Source: Paecilomyces variotii (Eukaryota). From it: a DNA stretch of 64,000 nucleotides. A program made the position numbers and the translations under genes. The notes below the pieces were generated by a model. It searched no databases, was not told where the DNA came from, and saw only the letters and a program-made list of their open reading frames with translations. The DNA lies in assembly GCA_004022145.1 (NCBI GenBank), contig RCNU01000009.1. One strand, written 5' to 3'. Positions 11,253 through 52,062 of the stretch are shown here, piece by piece; position 1 is the stretch's first letter; the number at the start of each line of letters is the position of its first letter.

Positions 11253-12419
11253 ACGGATGGACGATGATTGGTGGTCATAATCGACATTTCTCGATAGTCA
11301 GACAGTCAGAAAAAGATAGTTTCTGGCAGCATAATAATAGCATGGAGATGATATTTTCTTGAACTTTTCGCGCTTCCTTTCCTTTCCTTCCTTCTTCCTG
11401 TCCTAGTGGATAATATTCATGGTATCTTGCCTTTCAATCAAATGGAAACACGAGTTCTATTCCGTTGAGAAACCTTTTCGTAGACGTACTTGATTCTTCA
11501 TACTTATCTAGCGGATATCCTACTTTCATGAGTATTCAACCCCTGGTTCGCAATAACTCAATTCATAATCATAATTAGATGATCGACAGCCACAGAAGAA
11601 GAAGAAACCAAAACCTTATTCACATTTCAACCGCGCGCATGGAAGTTTTTTTTCGTCTCATACACCCACCCGACAGGAAGAAGGAGAGAGAGCAGGGGCC
11701 TTGTTTTTTACTAAACCTTATTCTGACCCAGCTGTCAAGTCGGTTGATCTTAAGCGATCCTGTCATGTTCCACGAGGCGGCGTTGAGTCGGAGGTAAGGG
11801 GGTGGGGGGAGGGCAGGAATGTGAGATTTAGCATATCGGTTTAAATAGATAGGAATAATATATGCGAGGATTTGTGCTTCGTGTTGTTCACGGGTCGGTT
11901 ATTTAATACTTAGGGGGTGATTGTTTATTAAATGTTTTATGAATCATTACTGAACAGGCACTCGATCGTAACATCAAGTATGGAGAGGTCAATAATCCAT
12001 CTTCTGCTTTTCGGTATTTCAGCTATTAATGGTATGGGGTCTGTATTGGCGATCCGCAGCAGTGACCCCGAGAGCTTATGCAAGGCCAGCGAAATAATGG
12101 GCAAAGATGCCTGGTAGATGAGATTACAAATAGAATGTGAGGACCTGTAGAATTGAAGCTGAAAAAGACGACTCCGGAGGCCATATACGGCCTCATTTCC
12201 ACCCGTAACTTCCAGTGGCCTCCTCTGCGGCTAGAATTAGGCCCCCTTAAATTTTTCTCCTGTCCTGAATTTTTATAAAGCCTAAATTACTGCTTGAACC
12301 TATTAGCCTACCCTTTACTATTTTGCTTTGACATATTTGATGTCTCTACCTCTTATATTACCTGCTTAACTTAGTGAGCACTAGTGCTAGCCGATCTGAT
12401 TTTTTGTGAAGAGATTTAA

Positions 12420-13063
12420 GCTAGACATAAATATTTCTGCAGCCTTAGATGGCTTCCCCCAAATTATAAGCTAGAAGAACTTGCTGTTATCGAGCGGTAT
12501 CAGCGAAAGTAAGAAGTCTCCTTTTTTTTTCTCTTAAATAACTTTGGCATAGTTAAAGAGTAATAATTTATAGATATTGCATATATTTAAACGAGGACTA
12601 TGTCGAGTATCTTCTTTTAGAAGATCAAGCGATCTATATAAATTTTTTGACTGGATATGCAAGACTTCGCGGAATAAACTCCTTTAGTTATACAACGAAT
12701 ATTAGCAACGCCTTTATTAGTACTTCGCCCTATTTGCCCGCTGTCGCCTAAATAGCCGAGTTTATAAACAAATGCAGCGAGTAAGTACGCTTTTTAAGTT
12801 GCTACAGGTGTAAGGCTAATAAAAACAACAGTTTCTCGAACATATCTATTTCTGGCCGAGCGCAAGATCTCCAGGTGAATGAATATCGAAGTAGATATCT
12901 CTTTTTATGCGATTCTTCATTATTTTTACGGCCGACCTCCAGAATAGATTGGGAAGATTTTATGGAGCAAATAAATGTTACTATATATCTCTCTTGAAGC
13001 CCCTTGATTCTCTCGCCTCGTGGGTCTACCAAATTACGCTATCGCAAAGATAAGCCACCAGAG
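12420..13063 (+). pseudogene. Degraded three-exon gene remnant, possibly a DUF3435 tyrosine-recombinase (Starship captain) 5' fragment
   Basis: Phase-consistent introns 12509-12573 and 12781-12831 give WLPPNYKLEELAVIERYQRK/YCIYLNEDYVEYLLLEDQAIYINFLTGY.../DFSNIS...YLFLCDSSLF... with in-frame stops TAA 12749 and TGA 12995 in TpA-rich DNA. The family assignment is a by-eye resemblance only. Confidence 0.5.
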
Positions 13064-13617
13064 GTCTGTATAACATCCAGGTGTAGAATATTTATACTTA
13101 CTTACCTAGTTACTTGCTATACTTGTATTGATCAGTCTAGATTACAAAATGTGTTGGCAGAGGCACAGAACCCCCGCCCGCTTCCCTAATTATATAGGAA
13201 AGGCATAAAATAATTGCATTAACTTTGATCCGGTCGAAGACTTCGTCGAATGATGCAGTCTAACAATGGAGAGAAAGAGCTAATATAAGAATCCCGCTCC
13301 TACGACAGAGGCAAGTTCCACGAGGCGCAGAATGAACTGCCCACGACATCGAGATATAGCAAAACCTCCCAAGAAAGACGACAAAGTCGATCGTGAAGGC
13401 TGCTGCCTAAGGTCCAGGATTGTGGAATTAGGGGCTCTGTGCCAAGTCTTTAAGTACTTACAGTAGTCACGTGTAGACTATCTAGATAGACTCTTTGTGG
13501 TCGATTGACTCGCCCCTGTATTTAAAGCTTCGCTCTAACCATTATCAATATCAAGTGCTTGTTCTTTTATTTCACCTTGAACACTGGCTCCAGTCAACTT
13601 TTCTTTCATTTTTCCTC

Positions 13618-13638
13618 TGTGTGTGTGTGTGTGTGTGT
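13618..13638. repeat. (GT)n microsatellite
   Basis: Uninterrupted GT/TG run about 8 bp upstream of the kinase ATG. Confidence 0.9.
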
Positions 13639-13646
13639 CACTGAAC

Positions 13647-14567
13647 ATGTCCTCCCCATTCCTGGATCTGGACGGAAATCCTATAAATGGAGACGAAGTT
13701 CTCGGGTATGGCAGGGCCGGTCTGGTTGTCCTCCGTGAAAATATAGCAGTCAAAATGCCATTACGGTACAGAAGCAGTCGAGATAGCGATGTGGAAACCA
13801 ATATAGAGGTTTTGCAACACGAGAAAGAGGTCTATCAGCGGTTGGGACAGTGCGAAGGCGTGGTGCCTTGTATCGGTTTCTCCGAAACAACGATCCAGCT
13901 TAGCTTCATGGCAAATGGGGACCTACGTGCCTATTTAAATCGAAATAGACCACCTAGGTCCTTGCAACTCTCGTGGTTTCGTGATATGGCTCGCACTCTC
14001 GCACGAATACATGATCGCCGGGTCATTGTAGCAGACATTGCCAGTCGGAATTTTCTTCTTTCCGATGATCTCTCCATCAAATTTTGTGACTTCACAGAAT
14101 CGTCTATTCTTCATCCTGACACCGACATGGAGAATTTCAATGATAATGGATATTCTATCCAGACAGACATTGGGCAGCTTGGAGCAGTGATATATGAGGT
14201 TGTTACCGGGAAACGTTGTGATTTTGATCTTTTCAAAGATCAGCCATCGACAATTAGTGAAGCCATGTGGCCTCGGAGAGAAAATCTTCCTAATGTCAAA
14301 GATATTTGGCTCGGACCAATCATCGATAAATGCTGGACAGAAGGCTCTTTCAAAAACGCGGAAGGTGTGGCAAAGGCATTGGATGCTATAACGTTCCAAT
14401 CTCTATATTCGGACGACATTAGCAAAATACCACCGGAGAAAGAGCCTCAGTCACAACTCTCGAATACGCCTTCCACATATAATATTTCAATGCGACATAC
14501 TCTGGCCCTTTCAGTCGTCGTTGGTATCATTGCACTTTATACCACGTGGGGTTCCAGACGACGTTAG
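13647..14567 (+). CDS. Atypical protein kinase-like protein with C-terminal hydrophobic anchor
   Basis: Intronless. Gly loop 'LGYGRAGLV', 'AVK', helix-C 'HEKEVY', catalytic loop 'VADIASRNFLL', 'DFT', and subdomain IX 'TDIGQLGAVIYEVVTG'. C-terminal 'LALSVVVGIIALYTTW' followed by RRR. Confidence 0.85.
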   Translation: MSSPFLDLDGNPINGDEVLGYGRAGLVVLRENIAVKMPLRYRSSRDSDVETNIEVLQHEKEVYQRLGQCEGVVPCIGFSETTIQLSFMANGDLRAYLNRNRPPRSLQLSWFRDMARTLARIHDRRVIVADIASRNFLLSDDLSIKFCDFTESSILHPDTDMENFNDNGYSIQTDIGQLGAVIYEVVTGKRCDFDLFKDQPSTISEAMWPRRENLPNVKDIWLGPIIDKCWTEGSFKNAEGVAKALDAITFQSLYSDDISKIPPEKEPQSQLSNTPSTYNISMRHTLALSVVVGIIALYTTWGSRRR

Positions 14568-15399
14568 AAACGTACTCTATACTTAGAACATTTCCCGCTA
14601 TTTTGCTATCATCTCGTGACGAATTTCAAATAAAGGAGCATCGGGTCAGTTTAGGTCCCTTGAGAAGTTTGTTTTTGTTATGATCACTTGCTTTAGAATG
14701 GAACAATTACGTTCACGTCAGCGCTCGGGTTTCTTGAACAAATATCTACTACTTGACCCAAGCTTTTTAATAATCAGAACTCCGAAATTATCTACATAGT
14801 GTGATTATGGAGCATATCCGCACTGTATGATACTGAATTGAACGATTAATTATCACAAGATAACTATACCAGGATCCTTCCTAGCTATCCTATCTGTATA
14901 TCTCTTACCAGCATACCAGCCTCCACTCTGTATACAGCCACATGAGTCGCGTACTCCTGCCGTGTATTCCGTTATTTCGTAACCATTTGATAACACAGGG
15001 CGGTGATAACGATACAGTGTATTGGGCGGCCATGCCAGAAACGGGAAAATTAACGGCAAGGGGGAATTCACAGGTCCTCGCTTTACGAAGTAAATCCTGA
15101 GACCGGATAGGAAACTTGCATCGTATAACATCGTCCTTTCATATAGAAAAAAGCAAATAGATATTAAAACACAGAATATCCCATGTGAAGAACCGAGGAA
15201 GGCTAAGCGCAAGGCTGAATCGATGTGCCATCACGTGTTGATCTTATGCCTCTCGAAAGGCTACCTAAGCCACAGCGCCCGACGCAATAAATAACTGTCG
15301 CGCATTTTGAGCTTCTTAAATTTTCAATTGAGTTCTAATATAACCCGATGCTATTTGCCTTTTTTTTGGACAGTTGCTTCAAGGGGATTTACGGTGATT

Positions 15400-17213
15400 A
15401 TGTCTGGCTTGGAGGCCATAGGTGTCGCGGCCAGTATTATCCAGGTCGCAGATCTGGGCACCAAAGTATCGGTCCGGCTGTTTTCCTTGTACCGTCGGTT
15501 CAAAGATGCCGACCAGTCCCTCAGGGATCTTTCCAATGATGTTGCGCTCACCTGTGCTATTTTGCGTGAATTGGGCGAAAGCATAGAGAAGGACGAGCAA
15601 TCCAAGCTCTGCTCAGAGGAGGCACATCGCACTCTAAAGAGCATTCTGGGCCAGTGTCAAGAGGTCCTTGAGCAGATCCAGAACATGATTGATTATAGGA
15701 ATGATCCCCAAAAGACACCTTTGCAGCGGGCCACTGAGAAGTTCCGGAATGTCTTGCTGGAGCCGAAATTGGATCCGCTGAAGAGTAACTTGGAGAGATT
15801 GAAATCGACAATGCTCCTCTTGCTCAATGCAATCATGTACGCCGGTCAGATACGGAGGTAAGTCTGGAAAATAGTATGTTCTGAAAGTGTCTTTTTCTGA
15901 TTTCAAAATAGTAAACATGTTCCGACTCTGCTCGAAGAGCAGCGTGCTTTATTAGAAAGTCTTTTGGAAGAGAAAAGAAGCAATGAGCGAGGACCGGACC
16001 AATTCGCATTCATTGGACTGTCTCAGGTAACAGGTCCTGAATCCTCGAGCAGCAAAATCCACGCGCAGAATGACGGAGATCCTAATACCATAGATGGACC
16101 TGATGAGCTCAAACAATACAATTTCCTTATCCAGAGAATGTTTCACGAGATAGATTCGTGCAAGTCTAAGCTTGAAAGCAGTCGTCATTCGAGGATAAAA
16201 GACGGCGTCCTGAATATACATTCTGGCGAAATAGTGCGGTTTCAGCTGGAATACGGCCACACTGCTCTCCAGAACTTCGATCATTCGCTCTTTGCGTACG
16301 TTCAACTCACATTGTACTTAATGGCAAGAGAGACTAATATCTGCAGTGATCGGAGTACCAAACCGCTGGACTTGAAATCCTCCGCAAAGGATACTCCTGC
16401 ATCAACAGTGCCTCAACAAAGGCATCCCGACAACGGCGCTCTAGAGAGACCGGCGATCGATAAACGCTATGAATTGCGTACCCGTGCGAAACCAGTTCCG
16501 CCCACTAGAGAAAATCCTCCAGCTCATTCTGTAAAGAATCCTCCCCTTCTTGGTCCCTGGAAAGCCATGCTAATAAGGAGAAGATTGAGCTACACGGTAG
16601 TTCGGTGCGGTATCAAAGTGAAGGGGAGCAGATGACTTGGAACCCCCAGCCAAATGGGTACTCTCCGTACCCACTTTTCACAAGGCATCCCTATTTATCA
16701 ACCAATGGTGGGGAGAACAGCACTTCCACAGAAATGGATCCTTCTAAATTCTTTTATCCCCCTCCTTTGCTAAGGCAAGGGATTGACGAAACCTGTTGGC
16801 GCTCATGGGGGAATGTTGGTCGGGATATTGGGGAACAAGGGCAGCAAGCGGTTGCGGATGGGCGTCTTTCGAAGAGTCGACGCTCAGGCAGTGGATATAA
16901 GCCTTGTAAGCCCAAAGCCCAAGCCAAATCCAAAGCAGCCCGTCCTTCGACTCCCGAGTCCACCAGTCCCAATGACGACTCATTACCAGATAATCTGGTA
17001 GATTTGATGCTACGCTGGACCAATATTCAAAGAGATGAGCTTGGGCATCGTCCTCAGAAGCGACATCGCGACTCAAAGGGCCAAGGGGCCCCTTCCGAAA
17101 AGAAGCAGAGAGTCAACAATGTGTCTGAAGAATTCGCATACAAGCCAGAAGATATGACCACTGCGACGGCTGTTCAAGACCAAGACCTTCCCAATATACC
17201 TGGACAACTCTGA
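15400..17213 (+). CDS. HeLo-like / fungal STAND N-terminal domain protein without an NTPase domain; exons 15400-15857, 15912-16295, 16347-16530, 16584-17213
   Basis: N-terminus 'MSGLEAIGVAASIIQVADLGTKVS...DVALTCAILRELG...LERLKSTMLLLLN' is the typical fungal NLR N-terminal helical domain. Three GT..AG introns join the ORF-track frames in phase. No Walker A motif seen. Confidence 0.72.
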
Positions 17214-17416
17214 TACTGCTGAATCTCTTTAGAGCATAAGGCTATACATATTGAGAATCCCTATATCCCTTACGGTAATTTCAAATTCAAATATCTATAC
17301 GAAGTATACATAAACTTCGCTTCACAACGTATCGGAAGTATGTACAATTACATACATAACTTCAAGTGGAGAAAAAAACCTCCAACGCGCGGAACCGAAA
17401 TGCTTAACTCGGTACT

Positions 17417-17470
17417 AAATTTCTTGGCCTGCGGTAAGTAAGTGCCTTAGTACCACGGGCCAAGAAATTT
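17417..17470. repeat. Inverted repeat / hairpin with 20-bp arms (18/20 match) and 14-nt loop
   Basis: aaatttcttggcctgcggta (17417-17436) versus taccacgggccaagaaattt (17451-17470). Confidence 0.85.
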
Positions 17471-17912
17471 GTAACACGACGTCAAATTCAATATATCTAC
17501 TTCATTTTGACTCACGGGGAGATTCTAATTATTACGTTTTCGGGAAGAGAAGAGAGAGTAGTGAATCTGATTGTTTCTTCAAATCTATCTTGTATTCAAT
17601 ACTAGAAGAAGAAGAAGAAGAAGGACAGTCCATTATGTTCTGGAAATATGCTTTTGTCTTCCATACATACATACATGCATAAACCGAGATGGGGAAAGAT
17701 TTTGGTATGTTTGAGTGGAAGGGAGATGAGAAAGGTGATAATTGGAGGTCAAGATGCAGAATTGAATAGAGTAATGTGAATGAAACTGGGTAGGGGTATG
17801 GTATGGTCTGTTCAAAATCAGGTAAGAGAGATGGTTTTCTACATCCAGAAAATGACCGGTCAAGTTCGTTTCTGTGCAATGGATGAAAGATTCAAGGCAT
17901 GTTCTGTCTTTC

Positions 17913-31551: not shown

Positions 31552-32660
31552 AGAGAGAATGTCGAGGAAGTCGGGGCGCCTTCTTGGTTTGGTCCAAAAG
31601 CCTCTCGCAGTCGCTCTTTCCCCAAGAGTTTCCCACGCGCTCGCGTTGTTGTTGACTTGTTCGCCTGATTGGGTTTAGTGCCTTGGGCGGCGACGCGCCA
31701 CCGCGACGGCCCGCGACGAGAGACACTGACAGTGACCCAGCTGGTACTCGCAGGGTACCCAACAGCCTGCCCAGCACGCCATACACCACCAAGTATCTGA
31801 CAGGTCACTCTGTTGTCTCTCGATTCTACAACTCCCGCTTTCCCTCCCAATGGTAGAAGCAGACTATAGTACAGTGATAATTCTCAGCAACAGTAACTGT
31901 TGTTCGTCTACTCTCACACGCAGCCTAACATCCCAGGCAGTCCAGATCAGTGGCAAATGGTCCCATTTACCTCTCTCTCCACTTGTCGCATCACGGGCCA
32001 TCTGCCCCTCCCTCACAGACCACCGCGTCACAGCGTGCCAGTCACATGAGTGCCCTCTTTGCTAACTAAGCGGAAGTCCTGAAGAGATCACAACATTCAA
32101 CCCAAGCATCTGAACTGAAAGAGTCTCTAAGACTAAGTAGACAAACAACCAAACCACTGTAGAAAAAGAACATTGCTATTGTCCATCCAGTCTATATACA
32201 AGACCAATCCCCTGTCTACCAAGTCCTATCTATGTATCAATAATAATATGGGCTGTGGAACGCGAAAATAAACAATATGATGATGCTGATCCAGATCCAT
32301 CATCATCTGTGAAGTTTGAACACACTCTATACTCGACCAACAAAGCCCTTCAAGATGTCAAACCTCCCCACCAGAAACCACGTGTTGGACCCCATTAACG
32401 CCGCTGTACAGACAAGACGCCCTTGCAGACCAACTGTCGATAGTTCGTGGTCATCTCCACACTCCACACTCCCTTCGACCAAAGGCTCTGGAACTCAATC
32501 ATCATCTTCTAGGGGCTCCAAGAAAACCCCCCTTCCCATTCCTTGCCATCTCCTCACGTCCTAGACCTTGAGAATGTCCGCTGACCTTTGCTTAAGACGA
32601 AACCGTGTTATCTGTTCCGACAAGAGACAGATCCAAAGCGTTCCCGCTGGCCACAACGGA

Positions 32661-35600
32661 TCAGTAACCATTCGTATCCTGGGTAATAACAGAAAGGATC
32701 TCCCGTCGTAAATCGGTGAGTATGGTTTCCGCTGTCGCTTCGTTGACAAGATTCTTCGGCCCGAAGACGCCCACGTCCAGTGCGTCCCCCCGGACGGCAG
32801 CTTCGATATCAATCGTCGGCTATGCAAGACAGACTCGGTTAGTTCTTGATGCCACATGGAACCATATGCGATGTCACATACCAGGAAAATGTCTTCTAAA
32901 AATCCAGAGCGCTCGGGGTCAAAGCTGCTTTGGCTGTCTTGGCCATGATTAACGGTCAAACAGTGATCCTCTTTCGCCTCGGCGTTGCCATTGTCCTCTG
33001 CCAGAAGGGCCTTGATTTCCTGGGGATCTGCTGGCTCCACTCCCACATGTCGTTTATCGCCGTGATCCTGATCCTGCGCTGGTCTAGACTCAGGAAGTCT
33101 GAGGAAGTTGACGCATGTGTCTACTCGCACGCCGGTCCAGTCTGCGATCTCCACAAGCGACACGCCTGAATACTCAATTCGCCCGATTTCCTGTATATCC
33201 TTCTGTATCCTTTGCGCCACACTGAAAATGGACTCCCCGCTAGCTGCTGCATTTTCGATCTTCAGAGGGACAATGTTCACCGTGGGCGCTGTGAGCTCTT
33301 CTAATCCTTCCAGATCGTGGCCGCGGTTTGCTAGATACAATCCGACGATGACATGACCCGTTTCTGATCCATCATTGGTCTTTGTCAACCGCGATTGTAC
33401 GCGCGCGTAGGCCGCTAGGAACAGAGCTTGAATACTTATCGCGTGCTGTCGTGCCGCCATTTCGACCCGCGAGATATCCGAGAGCAGTCCCGGTCGATAG
33501 AAGCTCTTGATCTCAGTGTATGATGATGCCAGTGTCTCTGATTTCTTGTACGTTCTCTGCCCAAGATAGCCTTCCCAGAACTCCCGTCGCTTCTCCACAG
33601 GCGATCTAGTACTTTGAAACGCCACGAGTGTCGCCAGATCAAGGCTCGACTCACTCTTGGAAACCTCACCATTGCAGAAACTGCCAAGAGCATCGATAAG
33701 CATTGGAAGACTCACGGCATCGTAAAGTGCATGGTGAATCTCAAGCGCTATGTAGATAGCATCGGTTCTCGCGTAGGCGTGGAGTGTCACTGGCACTGAA
33801 TGGATGTTTCTCTTCTTCGATTCCCCAGCAGCATTGGATGCGTGCCAAACGATAGGGTTCCGGATATCATTCAGCACCACTGCGATATAAGGCATGTCTC
33901 TCTCAGCCGTCGGAATGAAGGCGGTGCGTAACATGGCTTCACGTTGTATCAAAAGCCTCCATGCATCATCTAACCGGCTGTGATCATTGAGGTCATGGAT
34001 TTTGTACCAGAATTTCGGGTAGAACACGGATGGATTCAGCTCATTCATCGCCAGGAGGTATGTTTGGCCAGCAGTCGTAGGGGAGATCCGGTCGACATGC
34101 TGCCGCTGGATATCATAGGATTGTAGCAAGCTAGGAACATCGATCCTTGCCAGCAGGGTATCCAGCACCGGTGTCACATCTCCAGACTTGAATCCCATAC
34201 CCTCAACCTTCACGGTCCTAGCCATCGCCCTGATGGTACCAGCCTTGAGCATGTCACTCACTGGAAGCGTGATAGACTGTTTCTTCAACAAGGACGACAC
34301 TTTTATGGCACTGATGCTATCCAGACCGAGATGGAACAGGGTCGCATCCTTACCAATCTCTTGCTCGGGAATTCCAGACACGGACGCAAGAACCTGACGA
34401 ATATTCGTCTCAAGTGTAGACCATTCTTCATGAGACTGAGAGATTGTATTGTCTTTCGATGTCGCCTGCGCTGTCGCAGCCTGCTCCTGGAACGCTCGGC
34501 CCTCACAGATTGAGACTCCACTGTCAACAAAGTCTAGAACCGGTCGATCTGGCTGTTGGAGAATCAGAGCGAACATATCACAAACACGCTCCAAGAGCAC
34601 TGCAGTCTCTGATGCTCCCAAAGTAGTATCATGGCATGCCACTCTCCATATGAGCGATCCACTCGTATTCTCCAGTTCAACGCATACAGGATACTCTAGA
34701 TTGGATGACGCATCAACAGATTTGTATAAAGCCTTCTGTGGATGGACGGCTTCTTCTGGCCTTTTCTGGTAGATGAACAGAGAATCGAAGAGTGCTCGAG
34801 AACTCATGTCGGGCTTTGCCTTTCTCAGAGGGAAATGTTGATAAGAGGCCATATCAGCCAGAACCCCTTGGGTGTATTTTAGCATTTCTGACCGCGTACC
34901 ATGGATAATAGAACGCATGGCAACTGTGTTCATAGTAGGGAACATCACTTGCTCTGCATTGGCAATGTCGCGACCTGAAAGTACCAGTCCGAAGACGACA
35001 TCTAGCCTCTTGACGTACTCCGCGAGTACAAGGGCCCAGCACGTAGACGCGAGAGCTTGCAGAGTAATCCCGACTTTCTTGCAGAAGCTATTAACTTCTT
35101 CGACCGCCACCAAAAGGGTCTTCTCCTGGCGATGCACAACCTGTTGCCGCCCGCCAGCGTCTGCTCCTGCGGGGAATTTAGTAGGAGTGCAATTGGAAAG
35201 AGCAGTTTTCCAATACTCAGAAGCTTGCTGTCCAGAAGACTCAATCAAGTGCTCCAGAACACCATCATACGGAGGCCGCTCGCAAGATCCACCGGCATAA
35301 CATTTTGCGACGTCGGCATGGAGCAAACCGAGTGACCATCCGTCATAGAGAGCATGAGCGACTGAGAAAATCAGATAGCGCTTGTTGTTTTCGGTCAATA
35401 TAACACGCAGCGCCATAAGAGGCTCGGTGTTGTTGGCGTTTCTGTCTCGGACTGGTATCTGGCCCTCGAGCACCTTGTTCACTGGTTGGTCCTTCCACTC
35501 AACAACAGGAATATCTAAAGCCACATCATGCACGAGTTGGGCATACGAAAATGGCACACGCGGGTCTGAGATCTCCGCAAAGGTCGTCCGCAAGATTGGA

Positions 35601-38600
35601 TGAGTCTTGAAGACTTGGTCCCAAGCGCTTTTCAGTCTTTCTAGGTCCACGTCTGGTTCGATCTCCAGGATATCATGGTTGTAATAATGTGTGTAGTCCG
35701 ATGCCACCATTTCCGCCACCATGGCCTCTTGAATTGCGGTTGCGGGCAACACTCGAATGGTATCTTTGGAGATCTCTCCATCCCGGGTCAGGCATTCGGT
35801 TATATCCTTTTCGTATCGGGAAAGGGATGTCCTCGAGATAGATGAGCTGCCATTAACCGGTTGCACTAGCTGCGCGGCCATTTTTTCGATAGTGCGCTGG
35901 CGCATGATAGTGCTGACAGGCAGACTTATGTCGAGGATCTTCAGTCTGGAAGAGACCTTTATTGCATCTATGCTGTCCAAACCGAGTTCGAAAATCGATG
36001 TGGTTTCTTTTATGTCATTTGGATCAATTCCAGCCAGCTCAGCAATGACATTTCGAATCATCTGGGACTCGGCATTCCATTCAAATTGGGTGGCTTTTCC
36101 TTGTCCTCGGTCGGACTCTCCTGTTCCCTGAGTCGTCGCGGTGGCGTGGCCGTTCAGAGATGTCGCGACACCATTGCTGTAAGATAGCTCTCTTGAAGGG
36201 TCCTCTATGAGTTGCAAGAGAGTGTCCCGGAAGAGGCGAAGCAAATCCTGGGCGTCTTCGGAGGAGATAGATTGTGTATTTGCAACGACTGTCGCAGTCA
36301 ACGACTGGTCGTCCTTGTGTTGTACTTCGAAAGCCAAAGGATATCCCATCTCTGCTTCACTGTCCAGTGGGAACCATAGGTTTTTCTCTGAGGAAGTGTG
36401 CATACTGCTGCTTTTCTGGAATACGAACAGCGACTCAAAGAGCGGCTGGTCTGGAGACCTGCGTGTCCACTTCATTATATCTCGCAGAGGAGTATGTTGG
36501 AAAGGAATGGTGGAAGTATAGTAATCGTGACAGCGCCGCACTAGGTCAGACCAAGTACTGAGATGGCTGAACCGCACATTGCTTGGAAGTGTGTTGAACA
36601 ATGGACCTATCAATTCTTCTATTCCAGGGACGTCGAGCGCCCTCCCTGAAACCACCATACCAAGTGTTGGGACCCTTCCAAATTGACGATATAGGACGAG
36701 AAGCCAACAGGCATGAAGTATAGATTGCTCGGTGACACTGAGCAATCGTCTGAGGACCTCCAAGCCACCCACGTCGTCGATATCGAGTTTGGCACTGGCT
36801 GTGCTATACTGGTCATCATCTTGCCGTGCACTGGAGAAAAGTGTCCCCACCGGAGCGTCGGCCAGATGCTCAGTCCAAAACTTTTCTGCGCCAGGAATCT
36901 TGCACAAGGGGCCCAGAGGCAAGACATCCAAAAATGAAAGTCCACTGGAGGAAGAGTCATTTTGAAGATATATGTGAGCAATCTTCTCTAACAGCAGCGG
37001 TAAACTGTTGCCGTCATATAGGGCATGGAAGATGTCCAGACACATCAATGATCTCGTTGGGGATGTGATCAAACCGACCTGCCAGGGCGAAGCACAGAAG
37101 TCACCCATTCTTTTGCACCATTTCATGAAATTATGGCGTCTCAAGTTATCCACATCCTCGCTATTTGCAGTAGTCATCTCGAACCACGGAAGCTCACTCT
37201 CTTTGAGGACGACTTGAGCGTAACCGTCTGGCGTTGGCGCGAACCTCGTACGAAGTAGCTGCTCCGCCTTTTGCGAGTGCTCCCATGAGCCTTTCAGTCG
37301 TTCGGAGTCAATCGGAAGTACCAACTCGAAAGCGAAAGAGGAGCAATATAGCGGCTTGTCACTTTCTAGGAAGTGATAAATCATTCCTTCCTGTAGTGGA
37401 GTGCAAGGAGCAACAGCGTCGATAGTCGAAGAAGCGATTTGAAGGTAACCTGCAGCAAGATGGAGATATTTGTGAGAAAAGGCCATGATGTTTTGTCGTG
37501 CCTCTCTGTAAATGTTCTCCATCGAAGCGGAATTGATGCTTGAGCTTTGAAGCTCCTTCGTTATTCCAGAAATAGTGGGGTCTTAAAAAGGGTCAGCTCT
37601 GTCTCGAAATCACACATTAGATAGATACTCACTCTTCATTATGACTGACGGCTGTGCCTGCGAAAATCCGGCTTCCCTGAGAGCCCTGCCAAATGATATC
37701 ACTGAAATCGAGTCCAAACCCAGTTCGTAAATACTGGACTCAGGGGATATTTCTTTATCTGCACTACCAAGATATCCCGAAAGCACAGAAATAACTTTCT
37801 TCAATGTCTCATCGTCCACATCCACCGCGTCTCTGCTCAGCGAGTTCAATGACTGCAATTCTTCGATCGACATAGCCTGGTACAATGCCTTTAGAGTCTT
37901 CGCGTCCGCCTTGTTATTAGCAGACAGAGGGAAAGATGTGATGGGAATGATATGCGTTGGGACCATGTAGCCAGGAAGATGAGACCGGCAGGCATTCTTA
38001 ACAGCTGATAACAAGCTGCCATCATCCTCATTGATACAGATCTCCACGGAATTTCGTTTCTGCTTCTGGCTGCCCTTAGTGACGAAGGAAATCAGTTGTT
38101 CCTTTGACTGCTTTGGATGCTTGACTACTAACGTAGCAACTTCTCCCACATCTGGCGCTGCGCCTTTGATTACCTCGTTGATTTCCCCAATCTCAAGACG
38201 CTGTCCACGCAGTTTCACCTGGTCATCTATGCGGCCCAGGAACTGGAAAGTACCGTCCCATAAGAGCCGCACGAGATCACCTGTTCGATAAGCGCGTTCG
38301 TTGAACTCCTCCAAGAACTGGAACTTCTCCGTTGTCAAATCCGGACGATTAAGGTAGCCACGTCCGACAAGAGGACCCGAGACACAAAGCTCACCCACAC
38401 TGCCGCGCAAGACGGGGGTTTTCGTCCCAGGCTGGAAGACATATGATCCGACATTATCAAATTGAGGCCCAATATTTGACGGTTTTCCGTTAGCGGGGAC
38501 TCTGGGGAACATGGTGCAACCTATTGTGACCTCTGTTGGACCATATCCATTGTAGATGACTCCCTGCTCTCCCCATGCATCAAGGATCTCTTGTTTCAGT

Positions 38601-41600
38601 TGTTCTCCTCCCGTGATAAATACACCGCGACACAGAGAAGGAACCTCGTCCGGACTGAGCAGCCTCGCGAGACTAGGAGTAAGATCAATGTGCGTGATCT
38701 GCAGTGCGCGAATCGTACCGGCGAGGTCTTCAAATAGCAAATCGCGAGGGCACGAAGTGACGCAAATGCCAACACTCCAACTCCAGTATTGCTCAAGGAC
38801 ACTAACGTCAAAATGGAAAGAAGCGAATTGGAGCCATCGAGACTCGTCGTCCCAATGGCCATCAAAAAGCCTGCTGAAAGCTAGCATAGCCTGAACAGCA
38901 TTGTCGTGGGTTATTTCGCATCCCTTTGGTGTCCCAGTAGTTCCAGACGTATACAAGCAGTAACATACGTCCTGTGGCGTTACCGGTCGATCAAGGACCA
39001 CTGCACCTGACGGTACATCGTCCAAAATACCCGGTTCATCTAGCGCAAGTACTTTGATGTCAGGAATGGTCTCCAACTCTGCCTTCTTGTCGAGGGTACA
39101 TAGCAGCAACTTGGAACCTGCATCGCCCATAATAAATTGTTTTCTGGCGATCGGTGCATTGGGGTCCAGAGCCACGTATGCGCAGCCTGCTTTTAAGACA
39201 GCAAGGATTCCCAACGATGCTTCAGGACATTTATCGAAACATATACCGATTAACTGCCCTGGTTGAGCTCCGAATCTTTGTAAGAGATGGGCAAACTTAT
39301 TTCCATCAGAATCGAATTCCTCGTAAGTCCAGACTCTCTTTTCGACCCCGTTTCTTTCGATGCTGGTTGCGAACTCAAATGCTATCTTCTGAGGTACTTT
39401 GCGCGCACTTTCTTCGACGAATTCGTGCAGCAGCTGCACTGGGGAAGGTATTCTCTGTTCTTTGGCAGGTGTAATAGATAGAAAGTCGCGGCCGACGCCG
39501 GAACAGTCATCAGAGCTTGAATCCGGCGAAAAGATGGAGTCTATGATGAACTTGTCGAACTGCTCTAGAATGAGGGATGCTTGTTCTTGGGGGACAACAT
39601 CGCTTTTGCAGGTCAGCCGCAACTCCAGCTCTCCAGAGCGGGGAATCATTTCAATCGACACAGGATACTGTAAATGGTAAGCTTTCACACCGGTATTTAG
39701 TGAAGAAGGGGTACACACGTCGATCTTAGCGTCATCTTCCACGACCTCCCAAGGACGAGAGTCCTCTGTCCCAGATGACATTTTCTGGTACACAAACAGC
39801 GTGTCAAATAATCCCTGTTCAGACTTCAGCCATCGCTGGATTTTTGACAATGGCGTACGGCCATTTTTCATGAGCCCAGCGTTTAGTTTCATGATGCGGC
39901 TGGTGAGATCACGATTAGTATTCTGCACGCGGCATGGGCAAGGCACTGTCATCAGACACGGCATCACTGCCTCTTTCGCCATCTCAGATAGGTCACGACC
40001 AGATAGCACAAGCCCGAAGACTATGTTTGTTTCACCGGTATATGCAGACAGCAGTCTGGCCCATGCAGCTTGTCCAGCAGCTTGGAGCGTAATGCCTAGG
40101 TCTCGACATCCAGTGTCCAACAAAGTCAATGACCGAGAACTTTTCTTTGAGACCACGGACAACTTTCCCTTTTCTGCATGCAATGGGTTTAGGTCAGGGA
40201 ATCTAACCACTTGTGATTCTTTGAGAACGTCTTTCCAGAAGTTCTCCGTAGCGTCGCTCTCGAGCACACTGGATGTGAGAATATGACTCAACACAGGACC
40301 AATTGGGATAACATCAGCCAAGCTTTGGCCAGTATAGGCTGCTGCAACATCCCTAAAGACCAACTCTAAGGACTGGGCATCATAAATCGCATGAAGAGCT
40401 GAGAACTCGAGAAATGTACTGGACGCTGTGGTCTTTACTGCGAGGTACCAGGGAGGCCGGTGGAGATTGGCGTGAATATTCTTTCTTCTCGAAAGCGCCT
40501 CGTTGCTAGTCCCCGACTCTAGAGGCTCTCCATACCAAAGTAGTGGCATGGCATCCTTGTGGTATGTAATCATGGCAAAGGGGTATTGCTGATCTTGCAG
40601 CTGGACAAACCCTGTGCGCAGCATCTCGTGTCTTGCAACAGTCCTCGTCCAAGCTTCGTTGAGAAGCTTTTCGTCAAGAGGAGCATATGATCTCAGGACC
40701 ACGCGGGTGAAATACAACTCGCCCCCTGAGCTATAAAATAGAGAGAGCATTCCTGATTGTACAGGAGTACAGGGGCGTACTGACTGTACAAGGGTACTGT
40801 CGATGCCCAACTGCTCACACACGCGAGGACGATATTTGGTCTCGAAGGATGCGAAATCAAATTCTTGCTCGTGAGACGCATCCTCTTGCTGGCGAGTAAG
40901 AAGCGATGCTATCTCACTCACGGCTGGGGTCTGTGTCATAGTCAGTCAGTAAAACAGAATCTTATGAGAAAGATGTCTACATATGGTCACATATAGGGGT
41001 ATTTACTTCAAGAATGTCAATCACAGACACTTCATAGCCACGTTTCCTCAGGGCGCCAGCGATCTGCACAGCGTTGATACTATCGAGTCCCAGTTGGAAT
41101 ATTGTTGTCTCCAGCTTAATCAGCTCGCTCTGGACCCCGGAAAGATTGGACAACAAGTCCCGAATCTCTGTCTCTTCTGCCGTCCAGGAATACGATGTCG
41201 ATTTGGAATTAGGAAGCTCTGAATGAGAATTGCTTGCAACGAGGAGACCGTTCTGACCAGTCGTTGGCAAAGGCAAATTTGCCCTAGTATCCAGAATACT
41301 TTGATCAGCAGCCCGAGCAGAAGGATATCTGACAGTGTGTTGGACTAATGTGACAAAGTTCTGGAGGAGGATCTCTGCATCAGATTGAGAGAGCCGCGAC
41401 GTTTCTCTGTGCAGGCATATATGGACTTTATTCTCGTCTAGGTGTGGCGTAACTTCGCATATAATCGGGAAGTCCATATCTCCTTGTTCTTCGAGCAGTT
41501 GCCACAAGTCGCGACTCAACCCTCGAGCATTGTTCTGTAAAATAAGGAGAGTATCAAAAAATCTCACTCCGTTACGCAGGACATTCTTCTGAATATTTCG

Positions 41601-44600
41601 CAGAGAGCTTAGCTGGTGTTCCAGGATCTCGACGTTGCTCTCTTGGACGGTCTTCAAGATGTCAGTATTTGTCGCCGTCGAGGGTATTCTGACGCGGAAA
41701 GGGAGTGTATTGAAACATGGCCCGACTATCCTCTCGACACCTTCTAGTGGGATTGTCCGACAACTAAAGACATTACCGAAACAAACATCTGTAGAGCCAG
41801 TGTAGAAGGCGAGCAATCTAGCCCAGGCTGTGTGAAAAACGTTCAAGGGTGTCGCCAAGACCTGTTTGCACTGCTTTTCGAATGCATCGAAGGGGATATC
41901 CAATGACAATCGGGTTTGCAGATAGCCAGGATCACCTTGCTGGGGCCCATTGTTTGAGGGTGAACACAGCAGCCTTGGAGATAAGTCAGACAGATAGCGG
42001 CTCCAGAACTCGTTGGATGCATCGAGCGGTGCATTGACGGTATACTCGATGAATTTGCGAAATGGTACTGCATCAGGTAGTGATTCTCCATGATACGTTG
42101 TCTCCACTTCCTGCAAAAGGACTGCCATAGCCTCACCGTCATGAAGTGCATGGTGAAGAGAGAATAACAGGACCTTTTCGCCAGTTTCCTGGACATTGAA
42201 GAGCGTCAGAGAATAGGGTAATTTCAAGGGGTCCTGATATGTGTCCGCAGACTTGATCTTCCGCTCTTCGATTGCGGATGTCAGGAGATTAGCCGTCGTC
42301 ACTAGAGATGACCATGGTAGATCAGCATTTTTTAAGACCACCTGAGCGTAAGTGAACCGCGCATCATCGGTGGAAACGAAGCATGTTCGTAAAATATCAT
42401 GTCTTAATACCATGTTCCACCAAGCCTCTCTGAATTTGTCAGAATCCCCATTCACTCTGAACAGAAGGTGATTAAAGTAGGTCCGAGCATCCTTGCTCTC
42501 TGTCTGGGAGAGCATTGCTTCCTGAAGCGGAGTGCACGGGAGAATTTCTGCGATTTCTTTTCCAGCTCTTTCAAATTCGGACGTCACCTGGGTTATGAAG
42601 TCTTCTTTGAAGGCTTTATCCAACGTTGTGTGTTTATGTATTCCATTGACTTCCAAAATTCTCTCTGATAATGTCTTGGCTAGTCTCGCCACCGAGTTTT
42701 GGCGGAGTATAACGGAGACATCGAGTTTCCCAATACCGGCATCTCTCAGTCCCCTCGAAAAAGATATAGCGGACACCGAATCTAAGCCGAGGCTGTAGAA
42801 TGACGTGTTTCTATGGATGCTGTGTAGTGGGACGAGAGTAACCTCAGAAAGAACGGCCGCAACTCGCTGTTCCAAATCAGAGAAATTGTCATCAACCCCG
42901 GCAGGCTCAACTTCTGCAGAAAAGCTCTCCAGCTGCTCTGGTTCCATTGCCCAGAAGATCTCCTGTAGTCTTCTATGATCAGTCTTTTTCTGAGACGTCA
43001 TAGGAATGCAGTCAATTGGTATGAGTGACGACGGCACCATGTAACCAGGCAAGGCCGAACGGAGATCCTCAAAGAGATAGTTGATTATCTTCTTGTAGCC
43101 TTCATTATCCGTCTCGATCACTGGGGTGGCTGGTGTCCAGAATGAGATCAGTTGCTGCTGGGTTTGGTTCTTATTGCTAACAATCATGGTGGCACAGTCT
43201 TTGACAGATCCATCCCGCAGAAGAATACTGTTGATCTCCCCGAGTTCAATTCGAAGACCACGGAGCTTCACCTGGTCATCTCTGCGACCCGTGAAGAGTA
43301 GAGCGCCACTTGCGAGTAAACGCCCAAAGTCTCCAGATCTGTAGAGTCTACCATAGCGAGGATGTTCGATAAACTTCTCATTTGTCAAGTCTGGCATGTT
43401 CAGATAACCTCTACCCTGTCTGGGGGTCAGTATGGTTAAACGATGAATTGATCGTCAACTTACCACTTGGTCACCTCCAAAAACAAACTCGCCAACTGCG
43501 CCCCGAGGAACCAACGAGAAAGTCTTATCACCAGAGACAACAAACGCAGAAGTGTTCTTGAATGGTCTACCAATATTCCTAATCGGATCGGATGGTCCAA
43601 CATTAGGCCGAACTGTACAGATGTTTGTTGTCTCGCTTGGGCCATAACCTAGTGGATTTAGTCAACGATTGCATCGTGGGCTACGGACTCTGGATGGAAA
43701 ATACCCTGGTACAGCCCCTTTCCCCCCCAGTCTCTGTGAACCTTTGTCGTCATGCCTTCACCAGCTGTAACGAGAAATCGGACTTTTGGCACATTACTTG
43801 GGTGAATGAGTGCAGCCACTGTAGGTGTAAGACTGAGATGGGTAACATTCATGACCCGGATGACATGTTCAATGTCCCCGAACATTATGTCGTTAGTGGC
43901 TGAACAAAGGGTCATGCCTCTGTGCCATGAGAAAAATATTTCGAATACCGAAACTACCATCTATCATCAGCCTTTTTATCTCATGTTAGAAGCAAAAAAG
44001 GAAGCACCAACCGTCAAAAGCCTGAGAGCACGCCTGGAGCAGTTTTGATCCCTCTTCCACTGGATACAATTCCGTAAGAGTTGCCAGATTACTCTGTAGA
44101 TTATGATGGGTGATAAGAACGCCCTTTGGCTTTCCTGTACTTCCAGAAGTGAAAACAACGTATGCAAGATTGTCCGCTCCATTGCGAGACGGGGTATTAG
44201 TAGTAGGATAACTGTCGAAATTCTCCCTGTCGAGTGTAATCAATTTCAAAGAACCTGCAATATGCAATTTCTGCGCTATAAAAGAGTCAGTAATGCAAAA
44301 CCGTGCCCTAGACTCGGCCAGAATAAACGTTGCTCTATCAGGAGGTGTATTTGGTGTAATTGGGACGTATCCAGCCCCAATCTTGGCAACTGCGAGGATG
44401 GAAATATAGAGGTCGGCGGACTTTTCTAGGATAACGCCAACAAGGTCGTTGTCGGTCGCTCCAAGCTCGATAAGATGATGGGCAAAGCGATTTGCCCTGG
44501 CATTCAATTGACAGTAGGTGACTTCTTCTTTCGTCCCAGCACCGCTCTCCAGATCTAAAGAATGTAGGAACTCAATTGCAATCCTATCCGGGTCCTCAGA

Positions 44601-47600
44601 AGCCAGCTTTTCAACAGAATACGCCAGTCGCGGGAGATCAAGCTGGGGCTCGAAGTTCTCATTCTCTATTGAAAGAACTGATGGGGGAAGGAAGTCACTG
44701 ATTTTGTCGACTGGAAGGTCGGTAGAGTGTATAAACAAGGATACCACGGCCTCTAACTGCTCCAAGAATATTTCGACCTGAGCAGCTGGTAGGACTGACG
44801 TCTGAAAATTGACCCTGGCCTGGATTTCATTACCTCGAGGTTGCAGCTCCAGAGTCATTGTAAACTCGAGGAAGTCAGTAGCTGCGACTTCCTTGAAGAG
44901 ATCAGTCGATTGCTGTTCTCTGCTCAGCGTCTCTTGCCATATGATCAGACTGTCGAACAAGCTGACTCCTGGATCAATTCCAGAAGCCCTTTTGATGTCC
45001 TGAAGAGAGAGGTGCCCATATCGGAGAGCTTTTCGATTTGAACTATTGATCGCCGCTAGCAGATCTGCTATATTTCGTGTGCTGTCGATGTTTATCCGCG
45101 TCGGAAGGACTCTGATGCATGGTCCTATGATGGACTCAATCTCCTCAATAGGTAATGTGCGACCAGAGAATACGGTTCCAAAAACAATATCTGATGTTTC
45201 CAAATATGAGGAAAGCAAATAGCCGTAGGCGGCTTGGAATATGGCTTGCCGGCTGACTCCGAACCCCCTTGATGCCTTTTCTATTTCTGAAGCGGGAATT
45301 GACAATATTCGTTGGGCTACTCCTGTTCCTCTAGGAATATCATTCTTGTCATTCAGGTTTGGCCATGTTGTAGGAGTCACGTCGTGTAAATTGTCTTGCC
45401 AATAGACTGATGAATCGCCTGCAGATGGAAGACCATTGAATTCCAGGTAGAAATCAGTAACACGCTTGTAAGGCGGTCTCCGTGTCGGAGTCGTTCCTCT
45501 GAGAGCCACACGGAGATCTTCTAGGATCAGCTCCCACGACCATCCATCATAAAGGGCATGGTGCAAATGGATTAGAGCATGAACGTGTTGTCTCTCTTGC
45601 TTGAGCTGCACTCTAAGCGGATACAGAATGCCATTCGCATCGTCCAAGCGAATGTCGTATCTGAAGGACGGGACTTCTTCGAAAATATCAGCGTCTAATT
45701 CCTTCCAACTGAACATGCTGTAGGAGCTGTCTCCCAGTCCAGTCTCAATGAATCCAGATCGCAATATATCATTTTCTTGCGCGATACTTTGAAAGGCCCG
45801 TTTGATTAGAGAAGTCTCAATACCCTCGGAAAATTCGAGCTCGATCCAATTACAGTATGCTTGGTGATTGCGACCAGTTTCAGCAAGCATAGCCAGCTGG
45901 ATATGACTGCAAGGCTCGACATTCTGGATCTTTGAGAGAACGTCAATGGAACGCAACCTTTCGATGGTAGCATTGACAATGTTCTGCTTTACACTCAGAA
46001 TATGGCCTTTCTCGCCTTCTTCTGACGTTCTATCATGTAGGTCACCCGCAAGACGCCAGATTCCGGTGATGGAGTTAGCCTCGAGGAGCTTCCCGACGTC
46101 CAGATTTACTCCCTCCGTACGAAGTCGGGATGCCAACCGAATTGCTGTCAAAGAATCTAGACCAGCTGCTGTGAGTTCCTGTCGATCATAATGCACGGTT
46201 CCGAGAGTCTCAGAGACACATCTGACGATCTTTTCTTCAAGAGCGTCCCGGAATCTCTGCTCGCCGGACGACACCATGGCCTCCCGTCGTTGGACGAACT
46301 CCCTTTCGAGGGCTTTTCTATCAACCTTTCCAGATGGGAGTTGAGGGAAACTGTTCATGAGAATATATTCGCCGGGAACCATGAATCTCGGCAACCACCG
46401 CTTGCATGTCTCGCGGATAATATTTGCGGTAACTTTGTCATCGTTGACAAGTGCGAAAATAACAAGCGTTCCGTCCACAATAACTGCCACCGTGCTCCGC
46501 ACACCATCTGTCTTGGAGGCAACTTGTTCAATTTCACCCAGTTCTATCCTTTGGCCTCTGAGCTTCACTTGACCACTGGATATTCGCCCAAAACATTCGA
46601 TTTCACCATTGGGAAGAAGCCGAGCTTTGTCGCCGGTTCGATATAACCGACCGTGTAGCTTGCTAATTAGGAAAGCCGTTGAGTTCTCCTCTGGTCGATT
46701 GATATAGCCTTCCGCAAGTTGCAGACCACCTACAACCAATTCACCAATCTGGCCGATAGGGAGAATTTCTGGTTCCCCGTTCTGCATATCTCCTTTTTGC
46801 TCGGTGGAGACAACATATGCAGAAACGGTCTTGAAGGGCTTCCCAATAAGGTTGACCCGCGCGCTTGTCTGGAAATCAGAGGCGATCGTACAGTGTATTG
46901 CTGCTTCCGTCGGTCCATACATTCCGTGGAGAATGCCTTTTCGATTTTCCGATCCTCCAAACTCGTCCACAACATGCCGTGTAAGCATCTCGCCGATTGT
47001 GAGGAGTATCTTCAGGGACGGGGCATTATCTCGTCTCTGAAGCAACTCTCCGGCAACTGTTGGAGTGAGCTCTGCAGCGTCAACGTCCAACTTCCTCATC
47101 ACCGACGAGATATCCCGTAGCATGGTTTCCCGGTCTGCGGCAGCGAGAATTGCACCTCTGTATAGAGGGAAGAACATTTCGAAGACTGAAACGTCAAAAG
47201 TCGGTGATGCAAATTGTAGGAACCTCTTGAACGTTGGAATCAATTCGTCGTGTGCGAGTAGTGACTGCGTCACCGCACGATGTGAAATGCCAACCCCCTT
47301 TGGACGTCCAGTCGAACCGGACGTGTACATCACGTAGGCTAATCTCTCTGGGCTGATAGTCCTCTCGGGTAAACTAGAAGGTGTCTCAATTGACTGCAGG
47401 TCATCTGTAAAAACCACTCGTACTGAATCGAGAGAGGATAGTTTCGTTGCAAGGTGGCTTTGCGTAACAACCACCTCAGCAGCCACATCATTTACGATGA
47501 AGTCGATCCGTTCAGGGGGATAGTCTAGGCTAAGAGGGCAAAAAGCAGCACCTGCCTTGAGGATGGCGATAACTGAGATGTATAGATCCACGGACTGTGG

Positions 47601-48356: not shown

Positions 48357-49110
48357 CGTGTTGAAGATTTATGTTTCTTTGTGTTCTTTGAAGTAGTCTC
48401 TTCTGGTCAGGATTGGATGAATGGCAGTTCCCAGGCAAGGGGGGCCTTGTTAACTATAAGTGTGTAAAGGCACTGTGCGTAAAGCCGACATATCAATCGG
48501 TCAAGAGGGAAATTGAAGAAAAACAGAAGTTTGCTTTTTCAATCGTGAGTGGGCATCTCGGTGTACATGGAGGAGAGATGGAAGTCAAGCAGAGGCAAGC
48601 AATGCCAATCAGGGCAATCCAAAAAGAAAACAAGATCCGTGCGAGGCAATCGCATTTGTCCGGGCATCACGAACAGTCCCCAGCGAGTTTGGCCACCTGA
48701 AGCGCGCTATGCGGCCAGCTCTCACAGCCCCTCCTGGAGTGTGAGATCGATGCAGCTTGACGGCGGGGTCGGATACTTGCTGGGTGGAGCCTCGAAAGCC
48801 CGACTGAGTTATCCCCGAGACTTCAACTTAGCGGCGCTTTACTCGTAGATGGGAGCCTAGGTTGCTGGCTAATTAATTAATTATTATTATTGTTATTATT
48901 ACTTGGTGCTAAGTTAGTCGAGTCCTCTAGGTAAAGGTCAGTGGGTAATAATATGTAGTACTGTACTTAGACGCTCGTTGAGCCTCGTACTGGCTTCAAC
49001 TTCCGCTGCGATGGTTCTGGTTGTTCATCCTTTGCTCCGGGCGATGTGCCTAGAGTATGAACGGGAAACAATGACGAGACCCGCGAATAAGCAACTACTG
49101 AATAAGAGCC

Positions 49111-50258: not shown

Positions 50259-50265
50259 TATAAAA
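50259..50265 (+). promoter_or_regulatory. Candidate TATA box of sidA
   Basis: TATAAAA about 250 bp upstream of ATG 50515, ahead of a probable 5'-UTR intron. Confidence 0.45.

Positions 50266-50400: not shown

Positions 50401-52062
<1,662 letters not shown>

What the first reader, a model, noticed from the sequence alone, without database searches (positions are those of the whole stretch)
12120..17540. Candidate derelict Starship-like accessory island between hydrophobin and zinc transporter
Between housekeeping-type genes sits a block of three co-oriented units: a decayed recombinase-like gene first, then a lineage-specific-type kinase, then a HeLo-like NLR-effector gene. A captain-first layout with NLR-domain cargo is the known Starship organisation. 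Both ends carry structure: GAGGCC/GGCCTC short inverted repeats at about 12177-12223 and a 20-bp hairpin at 17417-17470. TTAC, a direct-repeat motif reported for some Starships, occurs at 12124 and 17532, but a 4-mer is weak evidence. At about 5 kb it would be a heavily deleted, non-autonomous relic.
Basis: inference. Interest (0 to 1): 0.7.

Follow-up and report, generated by a model that had tools for sequence, protein, structure and literature searches.

The report
Shrunken Starship relic keeping one kinase
This is the 3-kb wreck of a known kind of giant fungal transposon (a Hephaestus-family Starship): both ends survive, its recombinase gene is broken and mostly deleted, and one intact kinase gene remains inside, while the neighbouring HeLo-like gene lies outside it.

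Summary
The element runs 12124-15086 (2,963 bp), TTAC to TTAC-N7-A. Its ends match published Hephaestus-family ends at 23/27 and 26/27 bases and recur elsewhere in the genome. The decayed gene (12340-12880) is the first ~143 of ~805 residues of a DUF3435 captain (E 4e-29), with RIP-type damage; the DUF3435 and catalytic part is deleted. The only cargo is an intact kinase, as conserved as the neighbouring zinc transporter. The PigL_N (HeLo-like) gene, the hairpin and the TTAC at 17532 lie outside. One conspecific run lacks the interior but keeps both flanks and the PigL_N gene; the exact empty-site join was not seen. The genome, probably Paecilomyces variotii, holds three more short paired-end elements of this type and no intact captain of the family. 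The scan noted captain-less relics of another (5S-targeting) Starship kind in this genome, not this element. New member of a known kind.

The parts
12124..12127 (+). Left direct repeat (microhomology) TTAC; start of the element
   Evidence: Similarity to three other genomic copies starts here; loose ends before 12124 in runs X5 (1 contig) and X20 (38 reads)
12124..12159 (+). Left terminus: TTACA-N5-AAT, then the inverted-repeat arm (core GAGGACCTGT), offset from the direct repeat
   Evidence: 12133-12159 matches the published upstream TIR of A. calidoustus aspcal2_s00748 at 23 of 27; the pattern finds 8 places in the genome against 0 in the control
12160..12215 (+).
   Evidence: 74-80% identical in the C34, C86:609k, C2:339k, C45:1242k and C45:700k copies
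12340..12880 (+). Pseudogene stub of a Hephaestus-family captain tyrosine recombinase: about residues 1-143 of ~805, two introns (12509-12573, 12781-12831), several stops and frameshifts; DUF3435 and catalytic region absent
   Evidence: tblastn of P0013 E 3.7e-29; 64 of 65 captain sequences hit the element, none past 12934; 74 of 108 codons identical, 23 of 30 one-step changes C>T or G>A
12884..13386 (.). Unidentified decayed interior; an internal deletion joint lies at about 12880-12884
   Evidence: Contigs of runs X1, X2 and X5 carry other sequence (197 to 1,122 bases) before 12884 (table 8); no Pfam hit in the ORFs tested
13647..14567 (+). Intact single-exon kinase-fold gene, 306 aa, with a hydrophobic C-terminal tail; the only cargo
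   Evidence: PF07714 E 1.8e-13; 10 of 10 cluster members full length, 284-306 of 306 identical; 0.9% DNA difference in run X1 against 7.4% in the adjacent interior
15010..15082 (+). Right subterminal block and inverted-repeat arm (core ACAGGTCCTC), directly next to the direct repeat
   Evidence: 79-93% identical copies on C23, C12 and C3; 15060-15086 matches the published downstream TIR at 26 of 27
15083..15086 (+). Right direct repeat TTAC, end of the element; followed by seven bases and A (15094), the Hephaestus target pattern TTAC(N7)A
   Evidence: Similarity among copies stops here; loose ends behind 15086 in X1 (2 contigs), X2 (3) and X5 (4); 7 of 7 right ends have the A against 77 of 289 TTAC in the window
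15400..17213 (+). OUTSIDE the element: PigL_N (HeLo-like) N-terminal domain gene with a fast-evolving, allele-specific C-terminus; no NACHT or repeat domain
   Evidence: 5' half covered at about 35-40x in X20, where the element interior has depth 0
17417..17470 (.). OUTSIDE the element: 20-bp hairpin between the convergent PigL_N and ZIP genes; real, no other copy found, not an element end

Best explanation
12124-15086 is an internally deleted, RIP-damaged Starship of the Hephaestus family. A full-size ancestor, captain first and kinase last, was integrated by its tyrosine recombinase at a TTAC(N7)A site, using the TTAC at its own end as microhomology (mechanism shown for Hephaestus in 10.1101/2022.08.04.502770; inferred here from the same end anatomy). 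C-to-T mutation then broke the captain, and one or more deletions removed its catalytic two-thirds and the middle cargo. Both ends and the last cargo gene remain. The kinase is kept intact by purifying selection and now acts as an accessory host gene, present in some strains and absent in others. The element cannot move itself, and this genome has no intact captain of the family. Shown: ends, captain identity and truncation, mutation bias, kinase conservation, absence of the interior in one run. Inferred: the full-size ancestor, the order of events, any benefit from the kinase.
For: Ends match published Hephaestus-family TIRs at 23/27 and 26/27. The same ends recur in the genome and similarity stops at 12124 and 15086, as do loose ends in other runs. 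7 of 7 right ends are followed by N7-A (background 77 of 289). The stub matches the N-terminus of DUF3435 proteins: 55 of 61 hits carry PF11917, tblastn E 3.7e-29. 23 of 30 one-step changes are C>T/G>A and 2 the reverse. X20 has depth 0 over 12336-13920 and 14238-14871 with outer flanks at about 40-60x. In P. lecythidis the 93% identical kinase (Plec18167_001880) is 12 locus tags from a full DUF3435 captain (Plec18167_001892), while the counterpart of a flanking HAD gene is at _008915.
Against: No read or contig showed a clean empty-site join. X20 leaves the window sequence at 11971 and has little depth again until about 15190, so a later deletion or a diverged haplotype could also explain it. 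The window has no DUF3435 HMM hit. The P. lecythidis link rests on locus tags and a shared contig length, not on DNA that I read. The one distant kinase locus fetched (L039, 53% identical) has no such ends and no captain, so this kinase family is not Starship-specific. The composite RIP index is only weakly positive (0.04-0.23).
Confidence: 0.9

Rival explanations
1. One reading: one 5.4-kb element, 12124-17535, that also carries the PigL_N gene; the end at 15086 would then be an inner end of a nested or extended element.
For: The PigL_N gene is co-oriented, differs strongly among strains and is of a domain type often found in fungal NLR systems (recalled). The hairpin is more than chance.
Against: No end motif near 17.5 kb; TTAC 17532 lacks the A. 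X20 keeps the PigL_N gene without the interior. PigL_N and ZIP have adjacent tags in strains with no listed kinase (DTO164E3_1269/1270, DTO271G3_1637/1636). The holes in X5 are uninformative: the tool filters records, and X5 holds 0.45 of the words of the whole stretch.
Confidence: 0.05
2. The 3-kb unit is not a wreck decaying in place but a natural non-autonomous mini-Starship that was, or can be, moved whole by a captain supplied in trans.
For: Both ends are nearly intact. Three more short paired-end units with unrelated interiors exist (1,909, 2,928 and 6,899 bp). HhpA moved a captain-frameshifted mini-Hephaestus in trans in the laboratory (10.1101/2022.08.04.502770). In X20 a left end follows directly on the right end of the C45 unit, so that site is polymorphic.
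Against: Single copy in this genome. X1, X2 and X5 hold it at the same site, with 4-7% non-coding divergence and different internal deletions, which is decay after one old insertion. The four units share only their ends. No intact Hephaestus captain in this genome.
Confidence: 0.12
3. The two ends belong to two separate insertions, and the kinase between them is an old host gene.
For: The genome has several unpaired left and right ends, and related kinases are widespread in Eurotiales and Onygenales.
Against: The ends face each other in the right order 2.96 kb apart, with the captain stub 216 bp inside the left end. The kinase is missing together with the stub in X20 and lies near a captain at another locus in P. 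lecythidis.
Confidence: 0.04

Closest known systems
Hephaestus-family Starships (family 2 in PMC11162782), closest in end sequence to A. calidoustus aspcal2_s00748 and, by target pattern, to A. fumigatus Nebuchadnezzar (TTACA(N5)AAT, PMC12153272)
   Same: TTAC direct repeats, TTAC(N7)A site, near-identical TIR arms, captain first and close to the left end, captain N-terminus about 69% identical over 108 codons.
   Different: 2,963 bp, against 15,020 bp for the smallest element of that paper's set and about 90 kb for aspcal2_s00748; captain broken and cut before DUF3435; one cargo gene.
HEPHAESTUS itself (P. variotii metal-resistance Starship; 10.1101/2020.03.06.981548)
   Same: Same probable host species; same end layout: TTAC, a short spacer outside one inverted repeat, the other repeat next to TTAC.
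   Different: Its repeat reads AATAT[A/T]GGGACCTGTGA, this one GTGAGGACCTGT; no metal-resistance cargo here, and 'kinase' has 0 occurrences in that preprint's main text. A relative, not a remnant of that element.
Derelict Starships (10.1101/2021.12.13.472469; life-cycle stages 4-5 in PMC11623301)
   Same: Captain lost or RIP-mutated, cargo persists and varies among strains.
   Different: Here both ends and a captain stub survive, so boundary and family can be read to the base, and the relic is unusually small.

Membership tests
Starship superfamily | Captain (DUF3435 tyrosine recombinase) as first gene at the 5' end | tested here: met
   As a pseudogene stub only: homologous to residues 1-143 of DUF3435 captains, start codon 216 bp inside the left end
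Starship superfamily | DUF3435 domain with catalytic residues (autonomous element) | tested here: not met
   No PF11917 hit in the window; the domain starts at residue 158 of P0013, past the end of the stub. Derelict, not autonomous
Starship superfamily | Short direct repeats at both ends | tested here: met
   TTAC at 12124-12127 and 15083-15086; similarity among copies breaks there
Starship superfamily | Terminal inverted repeats | tested here: met
   GAGGACCTGT core in both arms; 23/27 and 26/27 to a published pair
Starship superfamily | Cargo downstream of the captain | tested here: met
   One intact kinase gene inside the ends
Starship superfamily | Empty site in another strain | tested here: inconclusive
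   Interior absent in 1 of 4 runs laid (4 of 23 listed); no joint across the site was listed. Locus-tag spacing fits a missing gene in four named strains
Hephaestus family | TTAC core direct repeat and TTAC(N7)A target | tested here: met
   15083-15094; 7 of 7 right ends in the genome, one reading TCAC; definition
Hephaestus family | Captain falls in family 2 in a tree of the core-binding and catalytic domains | not testable with these tools
   Those domains are deleted. Indirect only: the TIR-matched published element is fam02 = Hephaestus; I did not establish that P0013 is that element's captain
Fungal NLR (for the 15400-17213 gene) | NACHT or NB-ARC domain plus repeat domain | tested here: not met
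   Only PigL_N and a sub-threshold SesA hit

The most novel reading that the evidence does not exclude
This fungus carries a natural class of miniature, captain-less Hephaestus-family elements (1.9-6.9 kb, each with different contents: a kinase, a NACHT-ankyrin gene, fragments) whose short ends are enough for an incoming intact captain to excise and move them. They would be to Starships what MITEs are to class II transposons, would carry single genes between loci and species, and would define the minimal cis-acting ends (about 90 bp left, 80 bp right).
Probability: 0.15. Interest if true: 0.7.

Novelty: new member of a known kind. Interest (0 to 1): 0.36.

Why it matters
It is a clean, base-resolved example of the late stage of the Starship life cycle: captain destroyed, ends intact, one cargo gene kept under selection and varying among strains. 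Pipelines that start from a DUF3435 hit miss it, yet a search for the ends alone finds it and three more paired-end relics in the same genome, so Starship-derived genes are probably undercounted. The conserved ~90 bp and ~80 bp end blocks are candidates for the minimal sequences that the captain needs, in the species where Starship movement can be assayed. My four literature searches and passages of seven papers showed no description of this element, but derelicts as a class are well described.

Tried and rejected
Right end at 17417-17535: no copy elsewhere, no family motif, no A after TTAC. A 32-nt inverted repeat 11623/17371 that would bracket all three genes: 23 of 32 matches, reached by 10 of 20 shuffles; chance. 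Pfam on the stub in three frames: 0 families. The weak match of captain residues 133-168 to 12843-12935: past 12880 it probably crosses the deletion joint seen, so I end the stub at 12880. My first RIP count (22 of 34) had one segment out of register; one search replaces it. P0004, the top hit, is a repetitive protein and was dropped; the other 7 of 8 hits are captain fragments. The pattern gave 8 matches against 8 in the control at one mismatch, so only its exact matches were looked at. The DUF3435 gene on C45 is only 27% identical to one family captain over 66 residues and was not returned by the P0013 search: another lineage. Holes in runs X1, X2 and X5 were not used as absence. L039 showed no ends and no captain. 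Partners for the unpaired ends on C2, C3, C12, C23, C45:700k and C86:609k were not found within 10 kb; farther was not searched. Expression was not tested.
Full report
Setting. The window is C86:1178001-1242000 of a 30.1-Mb fungal assembly. The kinase and PigL_N proteins are 99-100% identical to proteins named Paecilomyces variotii, so the host is probably the species in which the Starship HEPHAESTUS was described. GC falls to 39-45% over 12-15 kb.

The three co-oriented units, the short repeats and both TTAC words are there. The hairpin at 17417-17470 (18 of 20 pairs) beats 20 of 20 shuffles. But TTAC occurs 124 times on the + strand of the window, so the ends had to be found another way.

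Left end. A DNA search of 12000-13600 against the genome returned, besides the window, three places matching only 12123-12211 at 77-80%. All begin at the TTAC of 12124 (one reads TTCC). A pattern for this end found 8 places, the window included, against 0 in the reversed control. The start, TTACA-N5-AAT, is the pattern listed for the Hephaestus-family Nebuchadnezzar elements in PMC12153272 (passages). The GAGGCC/GGCCTC palindrome lies inside this conserved block.

Right end. The same search with 13400-17800 returned five other places: three match only 15009-15086, one is a decayed kinase paralogue, one a 73-bp piece of a helicase gene; nothing matched 17130-17800. The 15060-15086 stretch carries the reverse complement of the left arm (core GAGGACCTGT) and ends in TTAC, where similarity among copies stops. 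Seven right ends were found without asking for a downstream base, and 7 of 7 have an A eight bases after the 4-mer (one 4-mer reads TCAC), against 77 of 289 TTAC words in the window. TTAC(N7)A is the experimentally mapped Hephaestus target (10.1101/2022.08.04.502770, passages). TTAC at 17532 has a G there. In the supplement of PMC11162782 (term search; the file was cut when stored, so rows may be missing) the TIRs of A. calidoustus element aspcal2_s00748 match the window at 23 of 27 (left) and 26 of 27 (right) bases; its captain is fam02, which Table 1 names Hephaestus. The element is therefore 12124-15086, 2,963 bp.

The captain. The window gives no DUF3435 hit; the genome's only hits are one gene on C45. 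One frame of the decayed gene found 8 proteins, 7 of them fragments of one family. One fragment led to 61 longer proteins among 70 candidates, 55 of 61 with PF11917. These align to the window in order: residues 18-60, 60-84 and 84-129 of P0013, E 3.7e-29, with the start codon at 12340 and two introns. 64 of 65 captain sequences tested hit the element and none past 12934. DUF3435 begins at residue 158, and the tyrosines that HhpA needs are at 381 and 416, so the whole catalytic part is gone. Over 108 codons, 74 are identical to P0013; 23 of 30 one-step changes are C>T or G>A and 2 the reverse, and three stops replace Gln or Trp codons. That fits RIP, which is active in this species; the dinucleotide index is only weakly positive. 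A search of the genome with P0013 returned only this stub.

Other strains. Of 23 runs listed I laid 4, from 4 studies. In X20 (raw reads, same species label as the runs that hold the whole stretch) depth is 0 over 12336-13920 and 14238-14871, about 40-60x on the outer flanks and 35-40x on the 5' half of the PigL_N gene. No joint across the site was listed: X20 departs from the window at 11971 (35 reads) into sequence that looks by eye like a diverged version of the flank. So absence is shown, a clean empty site is not. X1 and X2 have contigs across the left junction, and X1, X2 and X5 across the right one: the same insertion at the same site. They differ by 3.7-7.4% in two non-coding pieces (X1), X2 and X5 lack 12332-12547, and all three have extra sequence before 12884. 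The insertion is old and has decayed differently in different lineages. Named assemblies agree. The kinase tag is adjacent to the PigL_N tag in six strains. In four others the PigL_N tag is three steps from the upstream HAD gene (four to six steps in the three kinase-bearing strains where the same HAD gene is listed) and no kinase is listed. This is indirect: accessions of the window-identical kinase are hidden and gene calling varies.

The cargo. The kinase has GYGRAG, AVK, DIASRN and DFT motifs and a hydrophobic tail (residues 280-298). All 10 of 10 cluster members are full length. In X1 it differs by 8 in 939 bases (0.9%), like the ZIP gene (10 in 1,110), while the interior next to it differs by 37 in 503: purifying selection, by inference. 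The P. lecythidis counterpart of the flanking HAD gene (88% identical) is elsewhere. This points to a full-size parent element, but I could not read that DNA. A distant kinase locus from a metagenome had no Starship features. What the kinase does is not shown; a membrane-anchored signalling role is a guess from its tail.

The PigL_N gene. It starts 314 bp beyond the right end. It has PF17111 only (recalled as the former Helo_like_N), no NACHT or repeats, a conserved N-terminal half and very different C-termini among seven alleles. It neighbours the ZIP gene in strains with and without a listed kinase. It is a variable host-side gene, not cargo of this element.

The family in this genome. Four units have both ends: this one, C1 (2,928 bp), C34 (1,909 bp, partial right end) and C45 (6,899 bp, a NACHT-ankyrin gene, altered right end). 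They share essentially only their ends; further ends are unpaired within 10 kb. The plain reading is independent wrecks. Because HhpA can act in trans on an engineered mini-element, natural remobilisation is not excluded, but this unit is single-copy and sits at one site in the three runs that hold it.

Comparison and verdict. It works like, and by ends and captain homology is, a Hephaestus-family Starship in the derelict state described in 10.1101/2021.12.13.472469 and PMC11623301 (passages). It fails the test for an autonomous element. It is a fifth of the size of the smallest element in the reference set (15,020 bp). Papers seen: passages of 10.1101/2022.08.04.502770, 10.1101/2020.03.06.981548, 10.64898/2026.09.21.753150, 10.1101/2021.12.13.472469, PMC12153272 and PMC11623301; passages, sections 20 and 23 and supplement rows of PMC11162782; other papers as search listings only. 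Figures and the preprints' supplements, which list further Hephaestus relatives and could include the parent, were not seen. New member of a known kind; interest 0.36.

Noticed in passing
G000:C45:1241659-1248557 (L029:60-6958): 6,899-bp unit with a left end and an altered right end followed by N7-A, no captain, carrying a NACHT-ankyrin NLR-type gene on the opposite strand. In run X20, 38 reads show this right end followed directly by a left end, so another family element seems to sit in that site there.
   Followed up: partly
G000:C1:3402508-3405435 (L026) and G000:C34:1101326-1103234 (L027): Two more short paired-end units without captain (2,928 and 1,909 bp), each with an internal direct repeat of 63-71 bp; they share one 21-bp word.
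   Followed up: partly
window 17053-17125: 73 bp in the last exon of the PigL_N gene are 89% identical to the 5' end of a DEAD-box helicase gene on C12 and encode a basic, localisation-signal-like stretch; four of seven alleles lack it. Looks like a captured gene fragment.
   Followed up: partly
window 15400-17213: Alleles of the PigL_N gene range from 431 to 696 aa, with a conserved N-terminal half, unrelated middles and a shared short motif near the end; a pattern that suggests diversifying selection, as in fungal non-self recognition genes (inference).
   Followed up: partly
window 17417-17470: 20-bp hairpin between the 3' ends of two convergent genes, beyond chance in 20 of 20 shuffles; run X2 has a 4-base insertion in its loop. 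Function not tested.
   Followed up: partly
   Followed up: no
G000:C23:42013-42287 (L010): Decayed paralogue of the cargo kinase, 69% identical, with stops and frameshifts.
   Followed up: no
L008 and L012 (right ends on C23 and C3): Kinase-like ORFs of other types, judged by eye from translations, lie just inside two other right ends; kinases may be common last cargo.
   Followed up: no
window 32561-52062: Large NRPS gene on the minus strand beside an ornithine-monooxygenase-like gene: a siderophore cluster by recalled motifs; ordinary.
   Followed up: no
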